64,000 nt of DNA from a virus (Duplodnaviria; Caudoviricetes): IMG/VR virus record IMGVR_UViG_3300037461_000711, positions 1 to 64,000 of that record; one strand, written 5' to 3'. Positions 5,764 to 11,037 of this stretch are shown one piece after another. Position numbers and translations under genes: made by a program. The notes below the pieces were generated by a model that saw only the letters and a list, made by a program, of their open reading frames with translations, was not told the DNA's origin and searched no databases. Every line of letters starts with the position of its first letter. Position 1 is the stretch's first letter.

Positions 5764-6818
5764 ATTTCCCCCACTAATTTCTTAATGGCTTTGTCATCTA
5801 TGGGCTGTAGACAGGTGGGGCACGTCTTGGTCTGTTTCAAAGCGTCAAGCAGTTGGGCCTTGGAGTGCTTTCGTAACTGGTCAGCTTTTTGAAAATAATC
5901 AAGCTTGGTCTGGGCTTCGGTTATGATTTTCGATTTTTGGCTCAGAGAAACCTTGCTTTCTTCTAAAGCAACCACTTTCTCGATTAATTCTAAGGCACCT
6001 TTTTGCTTGAGAAGGGTTCTATGGGCTTTTATGGCAGATCGTGCAACCTTGGCCCTCTCAGAGAGTTTTTCGATTTCGGTATTTATTTTTTCAGCGGCAT
6101 CTAAAATGCCTGAAAGAGATGATCGCAGAGTTTCGAATTTAATAAACGCAGCGGATTTATCATCTATGTCAGATGTTAAGTATGTGATTTTACTCTTTAA
6201 TTCATTTAATTTATCAAGTCGTTCGTCTATTTCTTTAGCCCGGTCTAAAATGGGCTGAAGTGGTACAAGTACTCGATATGATTTGATTTTATTTTTAGAA
6301 GCCTCAATTTCGGCTTCAAGTCTTTCCTTTTCACGGTTGATCGAATTGATTTTAGAGGTGAGGTCAGATACCCAATTATCCACCATTTCGAGCCGGGTAA
6401 TGCGGTTGATGGTCTTGGCGACTTCACCGGCTGAAGAGGTAACGAGAAAGGGTTCGTCCAATTGTTTCTGAACATTCAACTCTGATATTCTGAGGGCACG
6501 TTGAACCATGTCGGGCACGTCTTTGCCTATTTTATCGAAGAGGTTGTCTCCGATAGCGTAGGAATTATACTTATCATCTTTGACGTGCCAGATCGAATCT
6601 CCTTCAGAAGTCTCAATCATTACCTTGGTGGCACCCTTGGCAAAGTGGCTTCTGATTCTTTCCCCCGAGGGGCGGTTGTGAAACAGCCAGTACAAGGCTC
6701 TCAAAATGGCTGTCTTGCCGCTCTGAGAAACCCCTGTAATGACGTTTACGCCGGGGTCGAGGTTGAGTTCGGTCTTCTCGTGCGACTGAAAATTCTCTAT
6801 GACAAGTTTTTTAATCAT
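5760..6818 (-). CDS. SbcC/Rad50 (gp46-like) N-terminal half ending in zinc hook
   Basis: IKKLVIENFQSH, Walker A GVSQSGKT, Q-loop VQKQLD, coiled coil, CPTC near C-terminus. Confidence 0.88.
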   Translation of the reverse strand: MIKKLVIENFQSHEKTELNLDPGVNVITGVSQSGKTAILRALYWLFHNRPSGERIRSHFAKGATKVMIETSEGDSIWHVKDDKYNSYAIGDNLFDKIGKDVPDMVQRALRISELNVQKQLDEPFLVTSSAGEVAKTINRITRLEMVDNWVSDLTSKINSINREKERLEAEIEASKNKIKSYRVLVPLQPILDRAKEIDERLDKLNELKSKITYLTSDIDDKSAAFIKFETLRSSLSGILDAAEKINTEIEKLSERAKVARSAIKAHRTLLKQKGALELIEKVVALEESKVSLSQKSKIITEAQTKLDYFQKADQLRKHSKAQLLDALKQTKTCPTCLQPIDDKAIKKLVGEI

Positions 6819-7354
6819 GATCGGGTAAAGTACATTCCACCGTGATAGATGGCTTTGATGGCAGGTTTTTCTTTTATTCTTTCCAGTTTCTCTTTCAGTC
6901 TTTCGATGGGCTGAACGTGTTGGGTGTAGCCACGCTCCACCATTCTGCCGATTACGTAGTCTTTTCTATCTCCACCATAGCCGATGAAGACCCGCTTCGA
7001 GTGATGTTGAAAGTTGTCAATAAGGTATTCCAACTGCACGTCACTTATGAATCGAATAACCTCTATGCACAATGCCAAGTCAAACTGTGAGCGTGTGGGC
7101 AGTTCTCTACAAATATCCCATAACAGTATGGGGGTTTCGGGGTGGCTGTGATAAAACAAGTCTGGGGAATTATCAACCCCTATGGCCGGTATGCAAAGGT
7201 GGTTGAATTCAAAAACCAGTTCACCAATCGAACAACCAAAGTCAATAACGGATGTCGGGTTGAACACACTCTTGAAAGCGGGGCAAACTAAAGGTGCTCG
7301 CCATGAGAGAAACTTTCTCTTTCTGAAATATTTTTCATCGAACATGGCGAGCAC
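6815..7354 (-). CDS. class I SAM-dependent methyltransferase (glycan-cluster type)
   Basis: SVIDFGCSIG, GVD, FDLALCIEV motifs. Confidence 0.75.
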   Translation of the reverse strand: MLAMFDEKYFRKRKFLSWRAPLVCPAFKSVFNPTSVIDFGCSIGELVFEFNHLCIPAIGVDNSPDLFYHSHPETPILLWDICRELPTRSQFDLALCIEVIRFISDVQLEYLIDNFQHHSKRVFIGYGGDRKDYVIGRMVERGYTQHVQPIERLKEKLERIKEKPAIKAIYHGGMYFTRS

Positions 7355-7361
7355 CTTTCCC

Positions 7362-7574
7362 TTATGAAAGTTTGGCCTTGCGGTCTTGAATCAGAATGCG
7401 AAGGGCTTTGCACTCTTTCGCCACGGCACTCAGGTTGAGGCGAATGTGCTTGGCGGCGGCTTTTGCGCCATGCTCCCCGGCATCGAACTTCTCGGCCCAC
7501 CGTGCCATTTCAGGGTTCGTTATCAGACTGCCCAATTCTTCCAGATGTTCAGAAATCAGTTTCTTCTTAGCCAT
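7362..7574 (-). CDS. hypothetical protein
   Basis: Start MAKKKLISEH overlapping the aminotransferase stop. Confidence 0.5.
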   Translation of the reverse strand: MAKKKLISEHLEELGSLITNPEMARWAEKFDAGEHGAKAAAKHIRLNLSAVAKECKALRILIQDRKAKLS

Positions 7575-8736: not shown

Positions 8737-9334
8737 CTTTGTAGAACTCCTCTCGAAGTTTTCTCTCGATTGAGAGAATTGTTTCAGGCGGGTACTCTTT
8801 GACCTTTCGAGCCGGTGCCCCCACGTACACCGACCATGGATCGCAATCTTTCATGACCAAAGACCCCGCCCCGATCAAAGCCCCTTCACCGATTGTAACC
8901 CCCGGCATGACAACGCAGTTTGCGCCGAGGGTGGCGTGATTTTCCATTATCGTGGTTGACCGTTTTGCGTTCCGATATGGCAGGGGTACGGTTGGGTTGT
9001 TCAGGTAGTTGCCATGCCAATCTTCGTTGCCGGTCAGCACCCGGCACCCGGTAGCAATGGAGGTGAAGTCTTTCATGATGAACGTGCCCCGGCCCGTAAT
9101 CGAAACGAAAGAAGCGATGTGAACAAAGTCGCCTATGGAACCATGAATGGCAATGAACACGAAATCGTCTATGACTACCGAATTGCCGATAGAGAGGTGT
9201 TCCTGAAAGATGATTTTAGCAAGTGGATAAATTGTCACGTTCTTGCCACAACTTTTGAGGTTACTATTCCTATAGTAAGGGTGATCTATCCATTCTAAAT
9301 CTTCGATTCTGGAGTCATAGTTCAATGTCTTCAC
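8678..9334 (-). CDS. vioB: hexapeptide-repeat (LbH) sugar N-acyltransferase, VioB-like
   Basis: IDDFV..VHIA, EDWHGNYLNNPTVP, PGVTIGEGALIGAGSLV..W.VYVGAPA pattern; adjacent to the VioA-like gene. Confidence 0.8.
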   Translation of the reverse strand: MKTLNYDSRIEDLEWIDHPYYRNSNLKSCGKNVTIYPLAKIIFQEHLSIGNSVVIDDFVFIAIHGSIGDFVHIASFVSITGRGTFIMKDFTSIATGCRVLTGNEDWHGNYLNNPTVPLPYRNAKRSTTIMENHATLGANCVVMPGVTIGEGALIGAGSLVMKDCDPWSVYVGAPARKVKEYPPETILSIERKLREEFYKDGIYQEAVIRGLPESRWQR

Positions 9335-10109
9335 CTATCAGGGTAGGGAACTTGTCTTGGTTATCAACCAAGTATTTCGGGTGGGTTTCGTAGGTAATCG
9401 GCACCATGACAGCTTTTCTCTGTTTTACACTTAACTCAAACATCCCTTTTCGTTTGGCTGCGATGAGTTGTTCATAATTCACGGCAATACCTTCATAGTG
9501 GTAACTGTTGATTCGTCGCATGTAGGTGTCGTAGTTGTCCCCGGTCTGGCTGAAGTGCCAGCCAGCGTGTGAGGCTGTCTTACCGTGTCTGCGCTTTAGT
9601 CGGGCGGTTCGGGGGTTTGAGTTGTAGAGGTTTTTTAGAACATCGAATTCAACAATGACAGAACCATTCCACCGAGTAGTCCAATGCCAATTGACGTAGA
9701 ACATGAACATATTCTGCCGCATGGGGCGAATACGGGTTGTGTAGAATGGATGATTAGACCAGACAAACTCTTCAATCGTCTTACGGCTGACGATTTCATC
9801 AGAGTCCCCAATGATGATTTTGTCTTCAGGCTTTGCTTTCTCAAGTCCCTTCATTATCTGATTGTGTTGAAACACCCCACACTCTTCAAGGTTGTGCCCT
9901 TTCAACCGCTTCAGGGGTATGTGAATTATTTTATCCTTAAAGTTCTCGAAGCTCTTCTGACTTTCTTGGTAGTAGAGGGGCTTTTTAGAAAGGTCGAATC
10001 TTTGCTCGGCCTCTACCAGCACGAAGAAGTCCACGACAGGAGCCAACTCGTGCAGACGGATTTCGAGCAAGTCAAGCTCGTTGTAGAATGTGAAGCAGTC
10101 ATAAATCAT
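9315..10109 (-). CDS. GT17-family (MGAT3-like) glycosyltransferase
   Basis: MIYDCFTFYNELDLLEIRLHEL..VDFFVLVEA, GDSDEI, GWHFS motifs. Confidence 0.85.
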   Translation of the reverse strand: MIYDCFTFYNELDLLEIRLHELAPVVDFFVLVEAEQRFDLSKKPLYYQESQKSFENFKDKIIHIPLKRLKGHNLEECGVFQHNQIMKGLEKAKPEDKIIIGDSDEIVSRKTIEEFVWSNHPFYTTRIRPMRQNMFMFYVNWHWTTRWNGSVIVEFDVLKNLYNSNPRTARLKRRHGKTASHAGWHFSQTGDNYDTYMRRINSYHYEGIAVNYEQLIAAKRKGMFELSVKQRKAVMVPITYETHPKYLVDNQDKFPTLIGEDIEL

Positions 10110-11037
10110 TCTTGAGCACCCTTATGAAGTAGTCACAGTTCAGATTGAGATTAATGCCGTGAACGAATTGTTTCTGCCCATTTCTGCCTATTTTGGCAGT
10201 TTCTTCAGGGTTGTCAAGTAAAAAGCGTAGTTTTTCTTCAAAATTGTTCATATCGAAAGAAACAAAATCTATTCCATCTTCGAGAATTGGACCATTGAAA
10301 AGTTCTATTTCAAGAAGACTTTTGTGGTGGAACAGACAAGCCCCCGCTTGCAGCGTGTGATAAGCCGAATGAGAGGTTTGCCCGAACCCTGGGGCCACTA
10401 CTGATATTTTTACGTGATTTAGAAAATAAAGGTAGTCTGGCAGAGGCACCCGGCAAAAAGCCGTTTGGAATAGAAAAGAAGTTTTTAGCTTTTCTATTAT
10501 TTCTTTTCTGATTGTATGAGGATAATTGGCATCGGTTTTGAACGCACAGTGAACAGGCACATACGAGGTATTGCTATACAGCGTTAAGAAATTTTTATAG
10601 GTATTCAATTCAGGTTTATACCAATCTTCCAAATTGAATGCGGGGAGAACAAAGACACAGTTATGTCCTTGCTGGTATTTTGATCCACCACACACTTTGA
10701 TTCTCGGTATTTTTGAAGGGAATCGTGTGTACCCATTACCGTTGGCGTTGTCGAAAGAGTCCAACAACAGCACCTTGCCCTTGAAGGTTCCCAATTTGGC
10801 ATCGGCCTGTTCGATCAGGCTTTTGTTAAACTTGCCCTTGTGGTTCTCATCTGGGAAGGTCTGATACACCAGAACATCAAACGGGTCGTGGTTGAAGTGG
10901 GGGTAGTTCACGAGTCGAACGGTGGAATACTGTTCGATGTCTTTGCGCTCCAACAATCGGGTCAACATGCTTTGCAAGTACCAGCAGTTTGACCCCTTAT
11001 CAAAAACGTATAGTATTTTCACGAGAAAATATCCCAA
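10099..11037 (-). CDS. GT-B glycosyltransferase (Glyco_trans_1_2/CgeB-like C-terminus)
   Basis: YLYFLNHVKISVVAPGFG...GACL...DGIDFVSFD..EEKLRFLLDNPEETAKIGRNG. Confidence 0.7.
   Translation of the reverse strand: MGYFLVKILYVFDKGSNCWYLQSMLTRLLERKDIEQYSTVRLVNYPHFNHDPFDVLVYQTFPDENHKGKFNKSLIEQADAKLGTFKGKVLLLDSFDNANGNGYTRFPSKIPRIKVCGGSKYQQGHNCVFVLPAFNLEDWYKPELNTYKNFLTLYSNTSYVPVHCAFKTDANYPHTIRKEIIEKLKTSFLFQTAFCRVPLPDYLYFLNHVKISVVAPGFGQTSHSAYHTLQAGACLFHHKSLLEIELFNGPILEDGIDFVSFDMNNFEEKLRFLLDNPEETAKIGRNGQKQFVHGINLNLNCDYFIRVLKNDL

What the first reader, a model, noticed from the sequence alone, without database searches (positions are those of the whole stretch)
6815..11037. Phage-encoded sugar-nucleotide tailoring and transfer cluster: VioA-like, VioB-like, methyltransferase, GT17 and GT-B glycosyltransferases
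Seen: five genes, nearly contiguous (one small ORF intervenes), inside the replication operon. Established: VioA plus VioB convert dTDP-4-keto-6-deoxyglucose (RmlA/RmlB product) to N-acylviosamine; methylated viosamine glycans decorate Pseudomonas syringae flagellin and mimivirus fibrils; GT17 is the MGAT3-like family. No RmlA/B is visible in the window, so the precursor would be host-derived or encoded outside it. Inference: the cluster builds a methylated N-acylviosamine glycan on the Thr-tagged virion proteins. DNA hypermodification is an alternative, but no base-hydroxymethylating enzyme is recognisable here.
Basis: partly seen in the sequence, partly recalled or inferred. Interest (0 to 1): 0.85.

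Follow-up and report, generated by a model that had tools for sequence, protein, structure and literature searches.

The report
Phage amino-sugar cassette for virion glycans
An uncultured 89-kb tailed phage carries a swappable four-gene cassette that most likely makes an N-acylated amino sugar (N-acyl-viosamine) from a host precursor and probably adds it to sugar chains on its own threonine-tagged head, neck, tail and fibre proteins.

Summary
On the minus strand at 6815-11037 lie:
- a class I methyltransferase;
- a small conserved ORF;
- a DesI/VioA-type sugar 4-aminotransferase;
- a left-handed beta-helix (LbH) N-acyltransferase, closest to AntD rather than to the VioB/PglD family;
- a GT17 (GT-A fold) glycosyltransferase;
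- a CgeB-like GT-B glycosyltransferase.

Catalytic motifs are intact.

The complete genome (89,318 bp) has no RmlA, RmlB, thymidylate-synthase-type hydroxymethylase or polytopic membrane protein. The precursor must therefore come from the host. DNA glycosylation and lipid-linked surface-polymer routes are poorly supported.

The "five-gene cluster" is composite. GT-B, GT17, acyltransferase and aminotransferase form a patchily distributed cassette. It is absent from the closest relative and present in the same slot in others. The methyltransferase and small ORF belong to the backbone.

A second cluster outside the window (72.3-78.4 kb: GT4, GT4, GT2, methyltransferases) co-occurs with poly-Thr tags and mucin-like giant proteins in 6 of 6 tagged relatives. 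It is missing from 3 untagged relatives, which carry other glycosyltransferases.

The virion-glycan target is therefore plausible but indirect, and the cassette is probably an optional capping or diversifying module.

This scan has already noted poly-Thr tags paired with glycosyltransferases in at least 41 other genomes. The viosamine cassette was not among the look-alikes.

The parts
6815..7354 (-). Class I SAM-dependent methyltransferase (179 aa). It is a backbone gene and a 26%-identical paralogue of a methyltransferase in the tail-region glyco cluster. Candidate sugar O-methyltransferase.
   Evidence: Weak Pfam methyltransferase hits. Motif I IDFGCSIGE. Atlas score 0.97 and TM 0.88-0.90, with structural neighbours that include GT1+methyltransferase and GT2+methyltransferase fusion proteins. 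Orthologue present in G001, which lacks the cassette.
7362..7646 (-). Small conserved ORF of unknown function. The likely start is the ATG at 7574, giving about 70 aa.
   Evidence: No family hit. 53-69% identical homologues occupy the same position in G001, L110 and L118. Translation.
7567..8736 (-). PLP-dependent sugar 4-aminotransferase of the DesI/VioA type. Predicted reaction: dTDP-4-keto-6-deoxy-D-glucose to dTDP-4-amino-4,6-dideoxy-D-glucose (viosamine).
   Evidence: PF01041 E 2e-72. TIGR04427 DesI 325 bits, below the 650 cut-off. Best solved structure is DesI 2PO3, 262 bits, with the HATK lysine and DAAHA motifs aligned.
8678..9334 (-). AntD-like left-handed beta-helix N-acyltransferase. 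Predicted to N-acylate dTDP-viosamine.
   Evidence: Hexapep E 2e-12. Best solved structures are 3VBI-3VBP, E 4e-33 over 165 residues. 3VBN is AntD of B. cereus. A homologue pair lies next to each other in a Verrucomicrobia MAG.
9315..10109 (-). GT17-family glycosyltransferase of inverting GT-A type. Donor and acceptor are unknown.
   Evidence: PF04724 73 bits against a cut-off of 26. 426 homologues. D96 and D104 are invariant, and D102, E105 and I106 are nearly so. AF2 pLDDT 92, with GT-A fold matches.
10099..11037 (-). CgeB/YkvP-like GT-B glycosyltransferase (289-312 aa). Candidate N-acyl-viosaminyl transferase.
   Evidence: Only 20 homologues, with no Pfam domain for all but the most distant (PF13524). 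AF2 pLDDT 79. GT-B/GT4 matches include HepE, PimB', TreT and BshA. Viral CgeB-like matches. Every homologue at 46% identity or more lies beside an aminotransferase and acyltransferase pair.
57211..57264 (+). C-terminal Ser/Thr tag of the major capsid protein (gene 55945-57264). Candidate O-glycan acceptor.
   Evidence: Translation. The tag is conserved in all relatives with about 60% or more capsid identity and absent in more distant ones.
58723..58767 (+). C-terminal poly-Thr tag of a neck-region protein (gene 58105-58767).
61481..61510 (+). C-terminal poly-Thr tag of the putative tail tube protein (gene 60884-61510, assigned by synteny).
1..753 (+). C-terminal end of a giant mucin-like Ser/Thr protein. 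It starts near 84.8 kb of the circularly permuted record.
   Evidence: The 1796-aa homologue in G001 has the same C-terminus.

Best explanation
The region is a nucleotide-sugar tailoring and transfer module of a phage-encoded, fully cytoplasmic protein O-glycosylation system.

Proposed steps:
1. The host supplies dTDP-4-keto-6-deoxyglucose.
2. The DesI/VioA-type aminotransferase converts it to dTDP-viosamine.
3. The AntD-like acyltransferase N-acylates it. The acyl group is unknown. A common acyl-CoA is likely, because no acyl-chain synthesis genes are present.
4. The CgeB-like GT-B enzyme, which always travels with these two genes, transfers the sugar.
5. The GT17 enzyme adds a further sugar.
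6. The backbone methyltransferase probably O-methylates a sugar.

The acceptors are most likely O-glycans on the poly-Thr tags of the capsid, neck and tail tube proteins and on the mucin-like tracts of the fibre-like giants. The core of those glycans is made by the conserved GT4/GT4/methyltransferase/GT2 cluster at 72.3-78.4 kb. The four-gene cassette is optional and adds or caps a sugar. This is comparable to modified viosamine capping flagellin glycans in Pseudomonas syringae and to anthrose capping BclA glycans in Bacillus.

Shown: gene identities, intact motifs, synteny and distribution. Inferred: substrates, order of steps, acceptor and biological role.
For: - Enzyme assignments.
- The complete genome has no RmlA, no RmlB/SDR and no thymidylate-synthase-like enzyme.
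- No protein has more than two hydrophobic segments, so there is no flippase, polymerase, ligase or polyprenyl-phosphate transferase.
- Poly-Thr tags on three virion proteins and three mucin-like giants.
- Tags, giants and the tail-region GT/methyltransferase cluster occur together in G000-G004 and G008. All three are absent from G005-G007.
- Homologues of the GT-B gene lie inside the tail-region glyco cluster in G002 and G008. Acyltransferase homologues lie inside it in G004 and G008.
- In L116 the GT-B, aminotransferase and acyltransferase trio sits in one island with a homologue of the core-cluster gene at 75844.
- The cassette is conserved at 48-57% amino-acid identity in L110 and L118.
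- Precedent: vioA, vioB, vioT and vioM cap a protein O-glycan (PMC3927599).
Against: - There is no chemical evidence of any glycan.
- The cassette lies in the replication/recombination operon, not with the virion genes.
- G001 has the same tags without the cassette, so tags do not depend on it.
- The co-occurrence of tags and cluster fits a single evolutionary switch.
- Untagged relatives carry other glycosyltransferases beside their head genes, so a glycosyltransferase alone does not predict tags.
- The host is unknown, so supply of the dTDP-sugar precursor is assumed.
- The aminotransferase scores below the DesI equivalog cut-off.
- The donor and acceptor of GT17 are unknown.
Confidence: 0.55

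Rival explanations
1. The cassette remodels a host surface glycoconjugate during infection. Candidates are LPS or O-antigen, S-layer protein, flagellin, pilin or a cell-wall polymer. The purpose could be to block superinfection or to alter receptors. Virion proteins would not be the target.
For: The cassette is co-transcribed with early/middle replication genes. DesI/AntD-type pairs in bacteria serve surface glycans (PMC3927599). The cassette is dispensable and patchy, as seroconversion genes are.
Against: The genome encodes no membrane-embedded glycan machinery and no predicted membrane anchor on any cassette enzyme. Cassette homologues sit inside virion-region glyco islands in related phages. 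The phage itself offers abundant cytoplasmic Ser/Thr acceptors.
Confidence: 0.18
2. The cassette hypermodifies phage DNA with an amino sugar to evade restriction.
For: It lies beside SbcCD, exonuclease and recombinase genes in this phage, and beside SbcCD in the different phage L114. GT-B enzymes include DNA glucosyltransferases, which appear as low-ranked fold hits.
Against: The complete genome has no thymidylate-synthase-type hydroxymethylase. No nucleotide-modifying families were found among the other replication-region proteins tested. To my knowledge no N-acyl-viosamine DNA modification has been described. The closest relative replicates with the same machinery without the cassette.
Confidence: 0.05
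3. The enzymes act on another soluble target. Examples are a non-virion phage or host protein, a small molecule, or diversion of the host dTDP-sugar pool to disturb host cell-wall synthesis.
For: Substrates are not established. The genes sit in an early operon.
Against: Two dedicated glycosyltransferases travel with the sugar-synthesis genes. This argues for transfer to a defined acceptor rather than pool depletion.
Confidence: 0.1

Closest known systems
Mycobacteriophage virion glycosylation (Che8, Corndog and others; Freeman et al. 2023, Cell Host Microbe; paper not held, details from my own knowledge and the paraphrase in PMC12619734)
   Same: Phage-encoded soluble glycosyltransferases and methyltransferases, with acceptors at the C-termini of the capsid and tail tube subunits.
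   Different: Che8 capsid and tail proteins end in short ...TGS and ...DGS, not in 8-17-residue poly-Thr tracts. This phage also has mucin-like giant proteins, six glycosyltransferases, four or more methyltransferases and an amino-sugar synthesis cassette. It is unrelated to any cultured phage. Nothing has been shown experimentally here.
Pseudomonas syringae viosamine island (vioA, vioB, vioT, vioM, vioR, vioS, acp; PMC3927599)
   Same: An aminotransferase, an N-acyltransferase, a dedicated glycosyltransferase and a methyltransferase. Their product caps a protein O-glycan on Ser residues.
   Different: This phage has no acyl-chain synthesis genes (vioR, vioS, acp). The acyltransferase is AntD-like. 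An extra GT17 gene is present. Homology of the GT-B enzyme to VioT was not tested. The genes are carried by a virus.
Bacillus anthrose operon antABCD and the AntD structure (PDB 3VBI-3VBP; Kubiak and Holden 2012, cited in PMC6031040)
   Same: AntD is the closest solved relative of the phage acyltransferase (E 4e-33). Anthrose is an N-acylated, O-methylated viosamine that caps O-glycans on the Thr-rich collagen-like protein BclA.
   Different: There is no AntA-like enoyl-CoA hydratase. The acyl group is unknown. The similarity is clear but distant, with conserved residues spread along a 165-residue alignment (E 4e-33).
Mimivirus fibril glycosylation cluster (L136 aminotransferase, L142 N-acetyltransferase, R141 dehydratase and glycosyltransferases; PMC4691112)
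   Same: A virus-encoded viosamine pathway that decorates virion surface proteins. The best viral fold matches of the GT-B enzyme are giant-virus CgeB-like proteins.
   Different: Giant viruses of eukaryotes encode their own 4,6-dehydratase and use UDP-sugars. This tailed phage lacks a dehydratase and must rely on its host.
MGAT3 (animal GT17 bisecting GlcNAc transferase)
   Same: Pfam GT17 family membership, a DxD motif and a GT-A fold.
   Different: There is no N-glycan substrate in this context. The protein is a short soluble form (264 aa). Its function in prokaryotes and phages is uncharacterised.

Membership tests
DegT/DnrJ/EryC1 sugar aminotransferases, DesI/VioA subtype | Pfam PF01041 above the gathering score | tested here: met
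   244.8 bits against a cut-off of 19.8
DegT/DnrJ/EryC1 sugar aminotransferases, DesI/VioA subtype | PLP-binding lysine and cofactor-binding aspartate motifs | tested here: met
   HATK and DAAHA align with DesI 2PO3
DegT/DnrJ/EryC1 sugar aminotransferases, DesI/VioA subtype | NCBIfam DesI equivalog cut-off | tested here: not met
   325.6 bits against a cut-off of 650. DesI is still by far the best model; the next scores 154.
DegT/DnrJ/EryC1 sugar aminotransferases, DesI/VioA subtype | Product is dTDP-4-amino-4,6-dideoxy-D-glucose | not testable with these tools
   Needs an enzyme assay
NeuD/PglB/VioB sugar N-acetyltransferases | Full-length match to TIGR03570 above the cut-off, including the N-terminal domain | tested here: not met
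   67 bits against a cut-off of 160.8. Only residues 130-176 match.
AntD-type LbH N-acyltransferases | Hexapeptide-repeat beta-helix with an end-to-end alignment to AntD | tested here: met
   Hexapep 46.7 bits. AntD 3VBK E 4e-33 over query residues 26-190. Identity of the PDB entry confirmed.
AntD-type LbH N-acyltransferases | Acyl donor is 3-hydroxy-3-methylbutyryl-CoA | not testable with these tools
   No AntA-like gene is in the cluster. The donor is unknown.
CAZy GT17 / Pfam Glyco_transf_17 | Pfam PF04724 above the gathering score | tested here: met
   73 bits against a cut-off of 26
CAZy GT17 / Pfam Glyco_transf_17 | Conserved acidic DxD-type motif and a GT-A fold | tested here: met
   D96 and D104 are invariant, and D102 and E105 nearly so. 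pLDDT 92, with GT-A matches.
CAZy GT17 / Pfam Glyco_transf_17 | Beta-1,4-GlcNAc transfer to the core mannose of N-glycans (MGAT3 activity) | not testable with these tools
   No such acceptor is expected in a phage-infected bacterium
GT-B glycosyltransferases (CgeB/YkvP-like, PF13524) | Pfam PF13524 above the gathering score | tested here: not met
   18.9 bits against a cut-off of 25
GT-B glycosyltransferases (CgeB/YkvP-like, PF13524) | Two-Rossmann-domain GT-B fold | tested here: met
   Foldseek probability 1.00 to HepE, PimB', TreT and BshA, with TM about 0.5, and to viral CgeB-like proteins
Class I SAM-dependent methyltransferases | Pfam methyltransferase model above the gathering score | tested here: not met
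   Best hit is 20.6 bits against a cut-off of 27
Class I SAM-dependent methyltransferases | Glycine-rich SAM-binding motif I and a Rossmann-like fold | tested here: met
   IDFGCSIGE. Atlas model TM 0.88-0.90 to methyltransferase clusters.
Phage virion O-glycosylation system (mycobacteriophage type) | Phage-encoded glycosyltransferases together with C-terminal acceptor sites on the capsid and tail tube | tested here: met
   Six glycosyltransferases. Tags on capsid, neck and tail tube.
Phage virion O-glycosylation system (mycobacteriophage type) | Glycan demonstrated on virion proteins | not testable with these tools
   The phage is uncultured. Mass spectrometry is needed.
Phage virion O-glycosylation system (mycobacteriophage type) | Same acceptor motif as Che8 | tested here: not met
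   Che8 proteins end in ...TGS and ...DGS, against poly-Thr-Ala here
Viosamine island / anthrose operon type sugar module | Aminotransferase, N-acyltransferase and dedicated glycosyltransferase kept together | tested here: met
   The trio is adjacent in G000, L110, L118, L114 and L116
Viosamine island / anthrose operon type sugar module | Acyl-chain supply genes (vioR/vioS/acp or antA) | tested here: not met
   No such family is found among the cluster genes

The most novel reading that the evidence does not exclude
A widespread uncultured siphovirus lineage covers its whole particle (capsid, neck, tail tube and giant mucin-like fibres) with O-glycans. These would be built by a modular and hypervariable phage-encoded pathway. 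Exchangeable cassettes such as this N-acyl-viosamine module would create phage 'glycotypes', analogous to bacterial O-antigen serotypes.
Probability: 0.4. Interest if true: 0.8.

Novelty: new variant of a known kind. Interest (0 to 1): 0.6.

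Why it matters
Virion glycosylation has been shown by experiment only for mycobacteriophages. Virus-encoded viosamine synthesis is known only from giant viruses.

A tailed phage that borrows a host dTDP-sugar intermediate and tailors it into an N-acyl amino sugar for its own coat would extend autonomous viral glycosylation to ordinary phages. 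The gain and loss of the cassette among close relatives would suggest that phage surface glycans diversify much as bacterial O-antigens do.

This bears on phage adsorption, immune recognition of therapeutic phages and adhesion to mucus or biofilm. It also offers compact soluble enzymes and a short peptide tag that could be tested as a glyco-engineering tool.

Tried and rejected
- A near-identity DNA search of the phage collection found nothing. Protein searches with the capsid protein and the polymerase found only distant cultured phages, so the host stays unknown.
- The best bacterial homologues of the aminotransferase are about 44% identical and spread over many phyla, so they give no host clue.
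- I first read the tblastn profile as 'untagged relatives have no glycosyltransferases'. HMM searches showed that they carry a different glycosyltransferase pair beside the head genes, and I corrected the claim.
- GT17 was sought in 12 related records and not found. It turned up only through the protein collection.
- A profile search of GT17 against solved structures gave nothing.
- Promoter and terminator scans gave no usable signal for a separate cassette transcript.
- The cassette's G+C and GC3 do not differ from the rest of the genome, so recent foreign acquisition is not supported.
- The SbcC tree did not resolve whether G001 lost the cassette or the others gained it.
- The Freeman 2023 paper could not be read.
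- The radical SAM proteins showed no QueE-like or other base-modification signature.

Full report
**The observation**

The window is the first 64 kb of a complete IMG/VR virus record of 89,318 bp with 127-bp direct terminal repeats. Six co-directional minus-strand ORFs fill 6815-11037, with overlapping or abutting stops and starts. They lie between SbcCD-like genes on one side and caspase-like, PDDEXK, exonuclease, UvsX-like, clamp-loader, family A polymerase, clamp and DnaB genes on the other.

| Coordinates | Product | Evidence |
|---|---|---|
| 7567-8736 | Sugar aminotransferase | PF01041, E 2e-72 |
| 8678-9334 | Hexapeptide acyltransferase | Hexapep, E 2e-12 |
| 9315-10109 | GT17 glycosyltransferase | 73 bits, cut-off 26 |
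| 6815-7354 | Methyltransferase | Weak class I methyltransferase hits |
| 10099-11037 | GT-B glycosyltransferase | Weak Glyco_trans_1_2 hit |
| 7362-7646 | Small ORF | No family hit |

**The enzymes**

- **Aminotransferase.** It is nearest to DesI. The NCBIfam DesI model scores 325 bits against 154 for the next model, but this is below the 650 equivalog cut-off. The best solved structure is DesI 2PO3 (262 bits). The PLP lysine motif HATK and the DAAHA motif are aligned.
- **Acyltransferase.** It is not a NeuD/PglB/VioB family member: it scores 67 bits against a cut-off of 160.8, and only the C-terminal helix matches. It aligns end to end with PDB 3VBI-3VBP (E 4e-33). These entries are AntD, the N-acyltransferase of anthrose synthesis, which acts on dTDP-4-amino-4,6-dideoxyglucose. 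A Verrucomicrobia MAG carries homologues of both genes side by side in the same order (47% and 43% identity). The pair is therefore a cellular two-gene unit.
- **GT17 protein.** It has 426 homologues. Acidic residues of a DxD-type motif are conserved. The model is confident (pLDDT 92) and has a GT-A fold.
- **312-aa protein.** It belongs to a small family of 20 members with no Pfam domain except in the most distant member (PF13524). The model (pLDDT 79) matches GT-B/GT4 enzymes. It also matches CgeB/YkvP-like proteins of giant viruses and cyanophages.
- **Methyltransferase.** It has a SAM motif I. The ESM Atlas places it among class I methyltransferases. Its structural neighbours include viral GT1+methyltransferase and bacterial GT2+methyltransferase fusion proteins. 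That is a lead towards a sugar methyltransferase role.

**What the whole genome adds**

- There is no NTP_transferase (RmlA), no Epimerase/SDR (RmlB) and no thymidylate-synthase-type enzyme anywhere in the complete genome.
- No predicted protein has more than two hydrophobic segments. That excludes a flippase, a polymerase, a ligase or a polyprenyl-phosphate transferase.
- The replication-region proteins I tested gave no base-modification family.
- The 4-keto-6-deoxy sugar must therefore come from the host. Hydroxymethyl-pyrimidine DNA glycosylation lacks its first enzyme. A lipid-linked surface-polymer pathway lacks its membrane parts.

**Candidate acceptors**

- The major capsid protein, a neck-region protein and the putative tail tube protein each end in a Ser/Thr tract followed by Ala.
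- Three very large proteins carry long mucin-like Ser/Thr tracts: 67255-72219, 82822-84765, and one running from about 84.8 kb across the record end into window 1-753.
- A second glyco cluster at 72293-78376 encodes two GT4-like enzymes, a GT2 and methyltransferases. Another note of this scan had flagged it.

**Comparison with relatives**

The capsid protein has 57 relatives in IMG/VR. Those at about 60% identity or more carry the Ser/Thr tail. More distant ones end right after the conserved core.

I fetched eight related genomes and compared them.

- The tail-region cluster, the three tags and the mucin-like giants are present together in G000-G004 and G008.
- All three are absent from G005-G007.
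- This fits one evolutionary switch, so it is suggestive rather than statistical.
- The untagged genomes are not free of glycosyltransferases. They carry an unrelated protein of about 700 aa with a GT1 domain and a 234-aa GT2-like protein beside the head genes.

**Architecture of the reported cluster**

- In G001, the closest relative (capsid 84% identical), the caspase-like gene abuts the small ORF. The methyltransferase and small ORF are present. The GT-B, GT17, acyltransferase and aminotransferase genes are all missing.
- The same four genes occur in the same slot at 48-57% identity in L110 and L118. In L118 they lie on the other side of the caspase gene. Another contig has the same order.
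- In L114, a phage that groups with G004 on the SbcC tree, the GT-B, acyltransferase and aminotransferase genes occur without GT17.
- In L116 the trio sits inside a large glyco island that also holds a homologue of the core-cluster gene at 75844.
- More distant GT-B homologues (31-32%) lie inside the tail-region clusters of G002 and G008. Acyltransferase homologues lie inside those of G004 and G008.
- The G008 island has a different tailoring set: a PIG-L deacetylase, an acyltransferase, a radical SAM/SPASM protein and a methyltransferase.
- The cassette's base composition matches the rest of the genome.

The cassette is thus an old, patchily distributed accessory unit. It belongs functionally with the virion-region glyco genes. 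The GT-B enzyme is the best candidate for the transferase of the cassette's sugar.

**Mechanism**

The most likely reading is as follows.

1. The aminotransferase and acyltransferase convert host dTDP-4-keto-6-deoxyglucose into an N-acyl-viosamine nucleotide sugar.
2. The GT-B enzyme transfers that sugar.
3. GT17 adds another residue.
4. A methyltransferase may methylate a sugar.
5. The acceptor is the O-glycan on the phage's own Ser/Thr tracts.

G001 keeps the tags without the cassette. The cassette is therefore an optional capping or diversifying step, not the core pathway.

The two characterised sugars of this type are both terminal caps of protein O-glycans. One is modified viosamine on P. 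syringae flagellin, made by vioA, vioB, vioT and vioM (PMC3927599). The other is anthrose on Bacillus BclA.

Rival readings are host-surface remodelling, DNA hypermodification and another soluble target. They are weighed in their own sections of this report. None is excluded chemically.

**Comparison with the known and novelty**

- Virion glycosylation is established for mycobacteriophages (Freeman 2023, paraphrased in PMC12619734). The paper itself could not be read.
- The Che8 capsid and tail proteins end in ...TGS and ...DGS, not in poly-Thr.
- Viosamine synthesis by a virus is known from Mimivirus (PMC4691112, listed).
- This scan has already recorded poly-Thr tags paired with glycosyltransferases in at least 41 other genomes. 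These are unverified AI notes.
- A sequence look-up with the aminotransferase found only two bacterial windows.
- The new elements here are the amino-sugar cassette in a tailed phage, its modular gain and loss, and the scale of the system.

I rate the finding a new variant of a known kind, with interest 0.6.

Noticed in passing
window 11019-11903 (-): A caspase-like Peptidase_C14 gene (E 3e-27) lies beside the cassette. It is conserved in G001 and L118 but sits on different sides of the cassette, and it is absent from L110.
   Followed up: partly
G000 72293-78376 (outside the window; L003:293-6376): A second glyco cluster (GT4-like, unknown, GT4, methyltransferase, unknown 241 aa, methyltransferase, GT2) is conserved in all tagged relatives. 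The 241-aa protein has no family hit and could be a new transferase type.
   Followed up: partly
G005 44724-47581, G006 66162-68926, G007 about 90760-92469 running on over the record end to 1-1094: Untagged relatives carry a conserved protein of about 700 aa with a GT1 domain and a 234-aa GT2-like protein directly after the neck genes. Their target is unknown.
   Followed up: partly
L095:16056-18970 (G008): The G008 glyco island holds a PIG-L de-N-acetylase, an LbH acyltransferase, a radical SAM/SPASM protein and a methyltransferase. This suggests a different route for re-acylating an amino sugar.
   Followed up: no
L112 (12.8-kb JGI contig): A large island with GT17, WbqC, a B12-binding radical SAM protein, a GNAT, DegT, at least six methyltransferase-like genes, a GT-B homologue and an RmlD/epimerase-like gene. 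It may be an even richer phage glycan cluster.
   Followed up: no
window 1507-1950 (+): A stand-alone response-regulator receiver domain protein (E 8e-24) lies in the region after the giant fibre-like gene. A similar gene occurs in L114.
   Followed up: no
window 22166-23332 (-) and 34134-34844 (-): Two radical SAM proteins. The first resembles the PA0069/Rv2578c family. Neither shows a base-modification signature.
   Followed up: partly
window 40001-44000: The G+C content drops to 0.32-0.35 between the divergent minus-strand and plus-strand gene blocks.
   Followed up: no
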